Shown here: positions 7,656 to 44,593 of the stretch, piece after piece
Layout of the letters: each line of letters opens with the position of its first letter
Position numbering within the stretch: the first letter of the stretch is position 1
NCBI GenBank assembly: GCA_951406725.2
Contig: OX597817.1
Location: forward strand, 73,222,001 to 73,286,000
Direction: 5' to 3'
Source of the DNA: Octopus vulgaris
Lineage: Eukaryota
DNA length: 64,000 nucleotides
The notes under the pieces: model-generated
What the model was told of the DNA's origin: nothing
The model's input: the letters and a program-made list of their open reading frames with translations, nothing else
The model's database searches: none
Program-made: the position numbers and the translations under genes

Positions 7656-8017
7656 TATACAATAGCAGAGGTGTTAAATTAAAAAAGTAAAGCTGGAGAG
7701 ATGGTCGATAATCTTGTAGGCTTCTAACAAGTGAACCGCTTGACATCAAAGTTGTAATGTGTCAATGCTCAGAGAAGAAAGACATTCAAGATATGGTAAG
7801 TTGCTGACACACACACACATTATCATCACAGTAAAACATCGATGATGATGATTTGTACAGGATGAACCCCATTTTTGGGGGGCTTTTACAAAGTCAGCTG
7901 CTAAACATCAAATCTTTGGTGTGTCCTGTTGTGTCTGGGGAGAGTCATTTTCTTTTTGTGCGTGATAATGTAACACACACACCGGTAAAATTTCCACTTA
8001 TTTCTTATTTTTATTTT

Positions 8018-8052
8018 CCTAAAATTTTCGTTGCGTCTTGCAACCTTTTCAC
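8018..8052 (-). ncRNA. Truncated hammerhead-like motif
   Basis: Minus strand GUGAAAA-G-GUUGC-AAGAC-GCAAC-GAAAAUUUUAGG: stem II and GAAA with palindromic stem III present; 5' core and stem I disrupted. Confidence 0.4.
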
Positions 8053-8321
8053 AGAAAAGCAAGACATTCAAGTTAAGGCAAGTGACTGATGAAAAGTATT
8101 TTTCTGGTTGCATATCTCTGAACACCTTTCACTATATTGATATTCTGAACAAGATGCAGATAGTAAGTATAGATGAACCATATGTTTAAATAGCTAACTG
8201 GAGAGTTGTTGCTAAAGGTCTTACTGAGTGGTGCTAAGAAACCTTTGGCCTTTTTTAATGATTGTAGAAGTGCAAATCATCATCATCACAGTAAAACAGT
8301 GATGATGACAAACTGATACAT

Positions 8322-21970: not shown

Positions 21971-22711
21971 TATGAGTAAGTCACATAACCTTTATTGTAA
22001 TCCAGCCAAAAACTTATATTCAGGAGAAGTTGAAAAACCGAAGAGAGCAATAGGAGAAGGAGTAGGAGAAGAAAATGAAAATACAAGCAGAGAGAGAGAG
22101 AGAGAGAGAGAGAGACTGAGTTGGTGCCTCACTAATGAATCTGTGACATTGTGTCAGCTGTGATTGATATCTCTTGCAATATGTATGTATGTATGTATGT
22201 ATGTCTGTCTGTCTGTCTATCTGTCTGTATGTATGTATTATGCATGCATGTATGTATGAGTATTTGTGTGCATGTGCTTGTATATATATATATATATACA
22301 TTCAACAACTATTGAAAAGGTTGCACGATGCAATGAAAATTTTAGAAATTTTAGTAAATGAGTAGAAATTTTATCAGTGGGTATGTTAAATTATAAGGCA
22401 TTAAAAGAGAATGACTCTCCCTAGATCCCACAAGGAGAATATGCTTCAACACATGAACTCATATAAAGAATCTTGCAAATCAAATCCAAAAACGAAATAT
22501 GTAATAACAAATATACGTTAATCTACTCTAAAAGGAATATGAGAAACCTGTAAAATGGAAAGAATGTTAATAGTTCTACAACCTGAAATCAAATTTCAAA
22601 CATATTTATGAAGGCTTAGCATCAAAAAGGGAAACAATTTTGGAATGAAATAGTCCAACAACATACCACTTGAATATTCTATCATTAGACGGTAAAATTG
22701 ATCACATAACA

Positions 22712-43319: not shown

Positions 43320-44221
43320 CTGTTTGTGTGTGTGTGCCATTTCTTTTGTTCCCCACAACCAACGTTGGTTTATTTACGGCGACACTGTCTCGGCATGCCC
43401 TTAGTCTAATGACTGAAACAAGTACAAAGATAAAAAATAGTGTATGTATGTATGTATGTTTATATGTATGTATGTGTGTATGTGTGTGTTTGTCTACTTG
43501 CATGCATGCATATCTGTCTGTCTGTCTGTCTATCTTCTTCCATCGATCAAAAAGAAGAGGCTCATACGTCGATTTCACAAAAGCAGTTTGCCCGTTAGAT
43601 TAAGACTTTACTTTGAATTAAGATGGCTCAGACGGCTTAATTCATTGTATTTTTATAGTTTTAAGTTAATCCCTACTCATTGCAGTTTTTTTCAACTGTT
43701 TCTGGGAGAATATTTGTCGTTCTCTGGTGAACTGTAACTTTGTCCTTGTATCTCAGCCAGTGTCTCCCTAGGTTTCCTCTTCCACCATGGAGCTGACTTA
43801 GAATTATGTTGTTACTCATTCTGACGACTTGAACAATCCATCTTTATTGGGATTGTGAAAGGAAAGGCTCAATACCGCCAAATTTACATTTAGGGAATTT
43901 CTGTCATTCAGGTTGCATCGATATATGGTCTGAAGATACCACTTATGAAATACACCATCCTGGTTGACAGGTGATCGATAGAAATCTGAAGATTCCTATC
44001 ATTACAGATGAGAAGAAAGAACTACATCGTGGTAGACATATTTTGCTTCTAATGAGATTCTCTGTTCATTTCACAAACGATGACGAAGTCTGTCGAAAGC
44101 ATTTGTAGCTTTGGCTAAGCAGTTTATTATTTCATCCCCAAGAGAGGCAACTGAATTTGCTCTGACCGCGAAATCCACAAGTTTTTAAAAAATTCTTTCT
44201 CTACTTATTTCCTCGTGTTCC

Positions 44222-44259
44222 TCTTTCTGTTGAAGAGCGTAGGCTCGAAACGTAAAAGA
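44222..44259 (+). ncRNA. Minimal hammerhead-like motif, A6U family
   Basis: UCUUU-CUGUUGA-A-GAGC-GUAG-GCUC-GAAAC-GUA-AAAGA. Confidence 0.65.
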
Positions 44260-44420
44260 CTTTCTCATCTTCTCGAGCGTCAAACTAATACACCTGTTTG
44301 TTGTTTATACACCTGTCTTTGTCTTATATACAAACAATTGCAGCGTGGAAGGTGTTTATAAGCCATTTAAAAACACACACAAAAGCCGTTAGATTCACTT
44401 CAACATTTAAATTCAATTTG

Positions 44421-44467
44421 TGTCAAAATATTTTCGTCGCTTTGAAACCGCGACCTGTTCACTGACA
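44421..44467 (-). ncRNA. Hammerhead motif with compensatory G3-C8 core
   Basis: UGUCA-GUGAACA-G-GUCGC-GGUUUCAAA-GCGAC-GAAA-AUAU-UU-UGACA. Confidence 0.65.
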
Positions 44468-44593
44468 AAAGATTGGTTACTGACTTTCTTAAAATTTATA
44501 TTTGTATTGGCGACATATTGTTGTGCAACAGAAAATATTGCCTAAGTGGGTTCGAATTTAAACCGTCTCATGAAAGTTGAATAGTATCTATGG

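What the first reader, a model, noticed from the sequence alone, without database searches (positions are those of the whole stretch)
44421..44467. Natural hammerhead with inverted G3-C8 tertiary pair
Seen: core GUGAACA instead of CUGANGA, with perfect 5-bp stems I and II and palindromic stem III (AAUAUU). Known: positions 3 and 8 form a Watson-Crick pair in the active hammerhead, so the double change C3G/G8C is compensatory. Inference: a double compensatory change points to selection for cleavage rather than decay, and standard CUGANGA searches would miss it.
Basis: partly seen in the sequence, partly recalled or inferred. Interest (0 to 1): 0.75.

Follow-up and report, generated by a model that had tools for sequence, protein, structure and literature searches.

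The report
Swapped-core hammerhead in Penelope retroelement
This is one of thousands of copies of a jumping gene's end-piece that carries a hammerhead RNA motif in which two paired core letters have traded places; related jumping genes keep the usual pair, so the shape is likely still under selection, but cutting is only predicted and would likely be weak.

Summary
The motif is real (minus strand, 44421-44467). G3-C8 is not a change in this copy. It is the inherited state of a PLE family (A; 6,902 pattern hits, 95 of the first 100 listed with G3-C8) whose RT + GIY-YIG copies carry it in their terminal repeats, about 60 nt before the ORF start. A sister PLE family (53% protein identity) has the homologous hammerhead at the same place with C3-G8 and compensated stems. 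Related PLEs from metagenomes show C3-G8 or U3-A8, never G3-C8 (0 of 24 motifs). Older G3-C8 copies exist, so the swap looks old and stable. Against 'selection for cleavage': sister masters amplified with U3·G8, C3·A8 or A9C cores; none of 37 bystander copies begins at the predicted cut; no raw RNA reads were available. Verdict: a new natural variant of a known kind, probably a weak, dimer- or protein-assisted ribozyme. I found G3-C8 in print only as a lab mutant, but key papers were not held. This scan noted the same swap before, elsewhere in this genome and in others. The window copy is a 139-bp inert fragment.

The parts
44421..44467 (-). Minimal type I hammerhead motif of PLE type with G3-C8 core
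   Evidence: sequence; fold; covariance model match 59.4 bits, though this copy is in the model's training set
44463..44467 (-). Stem I, 5' strand (UGUCA)
   Evidence: pairs with 44425-44421; compensated changes against the sister family
44456..44462 (-). Core GUGAACA: G3 at 44462, C8 at 44457, A9 at 44456
   Evidence: family state
44455..44455 (-).
   Evidence: sequence; an extra nucleotide here is a hallmark of PLE minimal hammerheads (PMC4209133)
44436..44454 (-). Stem II (GUCGC/GCGAC) and 9-nt loop II; the loop is where subfamilies differ
44427..44435 (-). G12-A13-A14 and palindromic stem III AAUAUU (predicted dimer helix, duplex only -0.2 kcal/mol)
44425..44426 (-). Predicted cut after U17 (UUU triplet), between 44426 and 44425
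   Evidence: inferred from hammerhead numbering; not observed
44421..44425 (-). Stem I, 3' strand (UGACA)
44332..44470 (-). 139-bp fragment of the terminal repeat (pLTR) of PLE family A, 91% identical to an ORF-bearing copy; it holds the predicted ORF start and the first codons but no intron, promoter region or RT
   Evidence: BLASTN against L245; no tblastn hit of the element's protein in the window

Best explanation
The motif is the minimal type I hammerhead in the terminal repeat of a high-copy Penelope-like retroelement family, with its 3-8 core pair inverted to G3-C8 in an ancestral master element and inherited by thousands of copies; it is likely a weak ribozyme that would cut after U17 only as a dimer or with help from the element's protein. 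Shown: the anatomy; the family state; its place in pLTR-ORF-pLTR elements (two same-strand copies 4.26 kb apart flanking an RT + GIY-YIG ORF); homology to C3-G8 hammerheads in sister families with compensated stems. Inferred: purifying selection on the fold including the 3-8 pair; dimer formation through the AAUAUU palindrome; slow cleavage that would process tandem precursor RNA while leaving most template RNA uncut. This window's copy is a truncated passenger.
For: Family state: 6,902 hits, reversed control 0; 95 of the first 100 listed are G3-C8. G3 and C8 both stand in 52 of 59 copies anchored upstream and not selected on the core (5 of 64 truncated or rearranged copies dropped). 19 of the 20 ORF-bearing loci examined (of 30 fetched) carry GUGAACA. 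Element: GIY-YIG PF01541 at E 1.8e-5, RT motif YVDD, open frames up to 1,025 aa; pLTR-ORF-pLTR layout at L303/L278. Sister family C (53-54% aa) has the homologous motif at the same place; 79 of the first 100 of 840 hits of its older subfamilies are C3-G8 while N7 varies (hand count). Pair counts on 18 hand-picked real copies: 88.5% of cells paired, 7 of 14 pairs with changes on both sides, 3-8 seen as C-G 5, G-C 5, U·G 5, U-A 2, other 1. Subfamily-level changes fall in 6 of 9 loop II positions, 0 of 42 core and stem positions and 9 of 84 flank positions. Metagenome PLE relatives: 19 C-G, 3 U-A, 2 unpaired, 0 G-C among 24 motifs in 19 of 56 loci. Older G3-C8 copies with other N7, loop II and stem III group with family A in a tree with the core masked (73% bootstrap). 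In a lizard PLE, C3G or G8C alone abolish cleavage, the double mutant partly restores it, and cleavage needs the protein (PMC11167929).
Against: None of 37 bystander copies begins within 4 nt of the predicted cut and 28 of 37 begin upstream of the core, so the templates that were copied were uncut. Sister masters amplified with imperfect cores: family B shows U·G 57, C·A 21, U-A 11, C-G 5, other 6 in the first 100 of 145 hits (hand count); the youngest C burst has A9C. The predicted ground state pairs G3 with U17 (probability about 0.6), the monomer cannot form stem III, and the dimer helix is worth only -0.2 kcal/mol. Copies are related, the variation threshold was set after seeing the data, and the tree rests on about 230 columns of decayed sequence with weak support; one G3-C8 copy (L490) fell outside the A+D group. 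In PMC11167929 cleavage was not needed for insertion in vitro and no RNA-seq reads ended at the cut site.
Confidence: 0.6

Rival explanations
1. The hammerhead fold is kept for a job other than cutting, such as a binding or folding site for the element's RT protein or a 5'-UTR translation element. The 3-8 pair is kept for shape, and catalysis is negligible.
For: Copied templates were uncut; successful sister masters carry A9C, U3·G8 or C3·A8; cleavage was dispensable for insertion in vitro in a lizard PLE; Cervera and de la Pena leave functions other than cleavage open.
Against: The catalytic nucleotides G5, A6, G12, A13, A14, A15.1 and U16.1 and a non-G at position 17 are kept across families that differ by about half in protein sequence; the 3-8 pair forms only in the active fold (PMC3884650).
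Confidence: 0.25
2. Neutral hitchhiking: positions 3 and 8 drifted in a master whose ribozyme no longer mattered, landed on a Watson-Crick pair by luck (about 1 in 3 if both change) and spread with the family.
For: The swap seems to be a single event; non-paired 3/8 states exist in family B masters; the flanks are also well conserved within family A.
Against: G3-C8 persisted while N7, loop II, stem III and flanks diverged between families D and A; no subfamily-level change in 42 core and stem positions against 6 of 9 in loop II; 22 of 24 motifs in outside relatives keep a Watson-Crick 3-8 pair.
Confidence: 0.13
3. Chance look-alike or decayed canonical hammerhead in this one copy.
For: The bare core pattern occurs at chance level; Rfam has no match.
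Against: Full descriptor is rare in simulated windows (1 of 200); thousands of copies share the state; it sits where PLE hammerheads sit, and homologues have canonical cores.
Confidence: 0.01

Closest known systems
Minimal type I hammerheads in pLTRs of metazoan Penelope-like elements (Cervera and de la Pena 2014, PMC4209133; read: parts 1-2 of 4 of the text, parts 1-2 of 3 of supplement file 2; supplement file 1 not readable)
   Same: Type I order, 5-bp stem I, bulged nucleotide before G10.1-C11.1, short palindromic stem III, place in pLTRs of RT + GIY-YIG elements, most copies on truncated elements, opposite-strand pairs nearby.
   Different: G3-C8 instead of C3-G8. The rows of their Fig. 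S3 alignment that I read show C3-G8, two U3-A8 and one U3·G8, no G3-C8 and no cephalopod. The bulge is G, where their consensus has H (one G case, Nasonia).
Natural U3-A8 hammerheads (Perreault et al. 2011, PMC3088659, passages read; Schistosoma Cercyon family in PMC4209133)
   Same: Natural covariation of the 3-8 tertiary pair.
   Different: U3-A8 keeps pyrimidine-purine order through transitions; G3-C8 inverts it and needs two transversions.
Engineered C3G/G8C double mutant (Anolis PLE hammerhead, Frangieh et al. 2024, PMC11167929, passages and first half of main text read; general statement in PMC8495972, one passage; Martick and Scott 2006 not held)
   Same: Same pair inversion; partial rescue of cleavage in a PLE hammerhead that needs the PLE protein.
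   Different: Here it is the natural state of a family with thousands of copies; there the ORF overlaps the ribozyme, here the predicted start lies about 60 nt past the cut.
Neptune/Nematis-type C-terminal EN+ PLEs (Craig et al. 2021, PMC8557442, passages read)
   Same: RT then Cys-rich linker then GIY-YIG; pLTRs, tails, inverted 5'-truncated copies, insertion in (TA)n.
   Different: Clade not tested by phylogeny here; canonical-descriptor searches of the kind used there would miss this family's ribozyme.

Membership tests
Hammerhead ribozyme | Three helices around the core in type I order | tested here: met
   Stems I and II fold and covary; stem III is 1 bp plus palindrome, formable only as a dimer
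Hammerhead ribozyme | Conserved U4 G5 A6, A9, G12 A13 A14, A15.1-U16.1, H17 | tested here: met
   All present in the window copy and kept in 55-59 of 59 family copies per position
Hammerhead ribozyme | Watson-Crick pair between positions 3 and 8 | tested here: met
   G3-C8 in family A, C3-G8 in sister family C, U3-A8 in relatives
Hammerhead ribozyme | Literal consensus C3 and G8 (CUGANGA) | tested here: not met
   Core reads GUGAACA; no Rfam match. The pair, not the letters, is the structural requirement (PMC11167929, PMC3088659)
Hammerhead ribozyme | Self-cleavage after H17 | not testable with these tools
   Only contigs were offered; no genomic pile-up of ends at the cut in 37 copies
PLE minimal hammerhead | Extra nucleotide between A9 and 10.1; G10.1-C11.1; palindromic stem III | tested here: met
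   G bulge, G-C, AAUAUU
PLE minimal hammerhead | Lies in the pLTR of a PLE | tested here: met
   Same strand, about 1.0-1.1 kb behind the ORF stop and again before the ORF start
Penelope-like element (EN+) | Single ORF with RT and C-terminal GIY-YIG | tested here: met
   PF01541 above cut-off; YVDD motif seen; Pfam RT model did not score on the query, but homologues are annotated as RT-domain proteins
Penelope-like element (EN+) | pLTR-ORF-pLTR, tail, inverted truncated copies | tested here: met
Penelope-like element (EN+) | Spliceosomal intron ending just before the hammerhead | tested here: inconclusive
   Branch-point-like CTAAC and a pyrimidine-AG acceptor-like site about 20 nt before the core; 52 of 74 copies begin within -7 to +5 of it; no spliced RNA seen
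Neptune or Nematis clade | Zn-finger-like Cys motif in RT-EN linker and RT phylogeny | tested here: inconclusive
   Cys-rich linker visible; no tree against reference clades
Non-LTR retrozyme | Head-to-tail monomers of 150-300 nt giving circular RNA | tested here: not met
   This copy is single, and held family copies are single or head-to-head inverted; circles not testable

The most novel reading that the evidence does not exclude
A purine-pyrimidine inverted hammerhead core, so far seen in print only as a lab rescue mutant, is a working natural ribozyme fixed in one of the most successful PLE families of this genome. It acts as a turned-down switch: it cuts tandem precursor RNA only when paired or protein-bound and spares most templates. 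One PLE lineage has toured C3-G8, U3-A8, U3·G8 and G3-C8, so CUGANGA-based censuses miss thousands of retroelement ribozymes.
Probability: 0.45. Interest if true: 0.58.

Novelty: new variant of a known kind. Interest (0 to 1): 0.42.

Why it matters
It would be natural, comparative support for the 3-8 tertiary pair in inverted form, and it widens the descriptors needed to count hammerheads in animal genomes (at least about 6,900 copies here are invisible to CUGANGA patterns and to Rfam). More usefully, one PLE lineage offers a natural allelic series (C3-G8, C3-G8 with A9C, U3-A8, U3·G8, C3·A8, G3-C8) with different copy numbers and ages. That makes the open question of whether PLE hammerheads must cut at all directly testable. 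It does not change hammerhead chemistry: the double mutant is known to work partly in the lab.

Tried and rejected
Rfam scan of the window: no match. A C3-G8 or U3-A8 sister with the same stem III as family A: no such family among the first 100 of 453 hits. Compensation within family A: of 30 non-C8 loci inspected (of 530 hits), 23 were family A, with 19 G3, 4 A3 and no C3-G8. A 3-kb tandem repeat holding a family-B copy had no RT ORF in the loci translated and was set aside as a passenger. Sequencing runs: no RNA holder listed on record, contigs only; the variant table was cut before the core and empty, so neither expression nor core variation in other organisms could be read. Fossil cut ends: not seen in 37 bystander copies; a genome-wide survey of 5' ends was not done, so a small excess remains possible. 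Coding constraint on G3/C8 rejected: the predicted start codon lies about 60 nt downstream, with stops before it. Literature: nine searches found no natural G3-C8 hammerhead. Lunse et al. 2017, Przybilski and Hammann 2007, Martick and Scott 2006 and Hammann et al. 2012 were not held and could already report one. Passages of PMC6466107, PMC12016570, PMC13725137, PMC10085705 and bioRxiv 10.64898/2026.07.22.740005 added nothing on this pair; bioRxiv supplements were closed.

Full report
Observation. On the minus strand, 44467 to 44421 reads stem I (UGUCA), core GUGAACA, one extra G, stem II (GUCGC, 9-nt loop, GCGAC), GAA, the palindrome AAUAUU, U17 and UGACA. Stems I and II are predicted (-11.9 kcal/mol, z -2.0). 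A full descriptor with G3-C8 hit 1 of 200 simulated windows, while the bare core pattern is at chance level. Rfam gives no match.

It is a repeat-family state. A pattern with positions 3, 7 and 8 left free has 6,902 exact hits in G000, reversed control 0; of the first 100 listed, 93 read GTGAACA and 95 have G3-C8. In 59 of 64 copies anchored on upstream sequence (5 truncated or rearranged copies dropped), G3 stands in 57, C8 in 54, both in 52. Copies that lost C8 mostly keep G3: 19 of the 23 family-A loci among 30 inspected, none C3-G8. So there is no compensation within the family, only decay after insertion. The repeat is also held by contigs of runs labelled with six coded organisms; one contig of organism F matches all 50 bases of the motif.

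The host element. [quoted passage not shown] G000 gave 84 scored protein matches, with open frames up to 1,025 aa in this family. Of 20 ORF-bearing loci examined, 19 carry GUGAACA. At L303/L278 two same-strand hammerheads 4.26 kb apart flank the ORF, the pLTR-ORF-pLTR layout of PLEs, and the predicted start codon lies about 60 nt past the cut site, so positions 3 and 8 are not coding. The closest named protein is labelled Octopus vulgaris (57% identity), so the host is probably an octopus. An acceptor-like site lies about 20 nt before the core, and 52 of 74 copies selected on the hammerhead begin within -7 to +5 of it; an intron ending beside the hammerhead is known in Drosophila virilis Penelope (PMC4209133), but splicing is only inferred here. 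The window copy (44332-44470) is a 139-bp pLTR fragment, 91% identical to an ORF-bearing copy, with no RT nearby.

Covariation across families. A sister PLE family C (53-54% aa) has a homologous hammerhead at the same place, with C3-G8 and changed but paired stems. Its older subfamilies have canonical cores: 79 of the first 100 of 840 hits are C3-G8, with N7 varying (hand count). On 18 real copies that I picked from families A, B and C, 88.5% of cells pair and 7 of 14 pairs change on both sides; slid controls reach at most 48% (the copies are related and were chosen by a pattern that favours intact stems). Related PLEs in metagenome contigs carry the same architecture: 24 motifs in 19 of 56 loci, 19 C-G, 3 U-A, 2 unpaired, none G-C. 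A note from this scan (e1-8670522) said the swap is kept across related families; I tested that and found older, decayed G3-C8 copies with other N7, loop II and stem III (family D). In a tree with the core masked most of them group with family A (73% bootstrap) apart from B and C (93%); one fell outside, and support is weak. The simplest reading is one old swap that lasted. Within A, subfamily-level changes fall in 6 of 9 loop II positions, 0 of 42 core and stem positions and 9 of 84 flank positions (Fisher P 5e-6 and 0.03, threshold chosen after seeing the data, copies not independent).

Results against selection for cleavage. Old family B amplified with U·G (57), C·A (21), U-A (11), C-G (5) and other (6) pairs in the first 100 of 145 hits (hand count). 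The youngest burst of family C, most of 1,593 hits, has A9C. Masters with imperfect cores can therefore spread. None of 37 bystander copies begins within 4 nt of the predicted cut, and 28 begin upstream of the core: the copied RNA was uncut. Folding puts G3 with U17 in about 60% of the ensemble, stem III cannot form in a monomer, and the AAUAUU duplex is worth -0.2 kcal/mol. No raw RNA reads were available.

Mechanism. Established: positions 3 and 8 pair in the active hammerhead (PMC3884650, passage); G8C cuts the rate 10^5-fold and C3G partly restores it (PMC8495972, passage); in a lizard PLE the double mutant partly restores cleavage, the ribozyme needs the PLE protein, uncut RNA is the main template and no RNA-seq ends map to the cut (PMC11167929); PLE minimal hammerheads cleave weakly and as dimers (PMC4209133; PMC6765202, passages). 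Inference: family A keeps a cleavage-competent but slow ribozyme that works when two copies pair or the protein binds, processing tandem precursors while sparing most templates (0.6). Rivals: a fold kept for binding or translation without cutting (0.25), lucky drift (0.13), chance (0.01).

Comparison and novelty. It meets the tested structural marks of a PLE minimal hammerhead; only the literal C3/G8 letters differ, and cleavage is untested. Natural U3-A8 is in print (PMC3088659; PMC4209133). The rows of the Cervera alignment that I read show no G3-C8 and no cephalopod. Nine searches found G3-C8 only as an engineered variant, but four key papers were not held. This scan has noted the same swap in other pieces of this genome and in other genomes; those notes are unchecked and are not independent support. 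Verdict: new variant of a known kind, interest 0.42.

Noticed in passing
window 44222-44259 (+): A second PLE-type hammerhead-like motif, tail to tail with the finding: core CUGUUGA (C3-G8 kept, A6U), bulged A, stem II GAGC/GCUC, ACGU palindrome. It belongs to another repeat family; cores CUGUCGA, CUGUUGA, CUGUGGA and CCGACGA were seen in 11 hits in held DNA.
   Followed up: partly
window 44073-44107 (+): A decayed hammerhead-like remnant (CGAUGA, GAC...GUC, GAAA) in a third repeat end, so three PLE-like ends lie within 400 bp.
   Followed up: no
window 22304-22360 (+) and 8012-8060 (-): Two copies of another member of the same hammerhead lineage, found by the covariance model: one U3-A8, one G3·A8, both with G bulge and A17.
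   Followed up: partly
L288:6374-6424 and most of 1,593 hits in G000: Very young sister PLE family C with near-identical copies whose hammerhead has C3-G8 but A9C; older relatives have A9. A distant relative (L374:2489-2539) also has C at 9 with a G bulge and U3-A8. The bulged G might stand in for A9.
   Followed up: partly
L245:9143-9165: Branch-point-like and acceptor-like signals just before the hammerhead; most short copies begin there, which may mark the 5' end of a spliced template RNA.
   Followed up: partly
L152-L170, L177-L180: A roughly 3-kb repeat, tandem in places, that carries a captured old family-B end; no RT ORF in the loci translated.
   Followed up: partly
L293:1942-5877: The family C protein (1,312-aa open frame) has a long Asn/Ser-rich insertion in its N-terminal part that family A lacks.
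   Followed up: no
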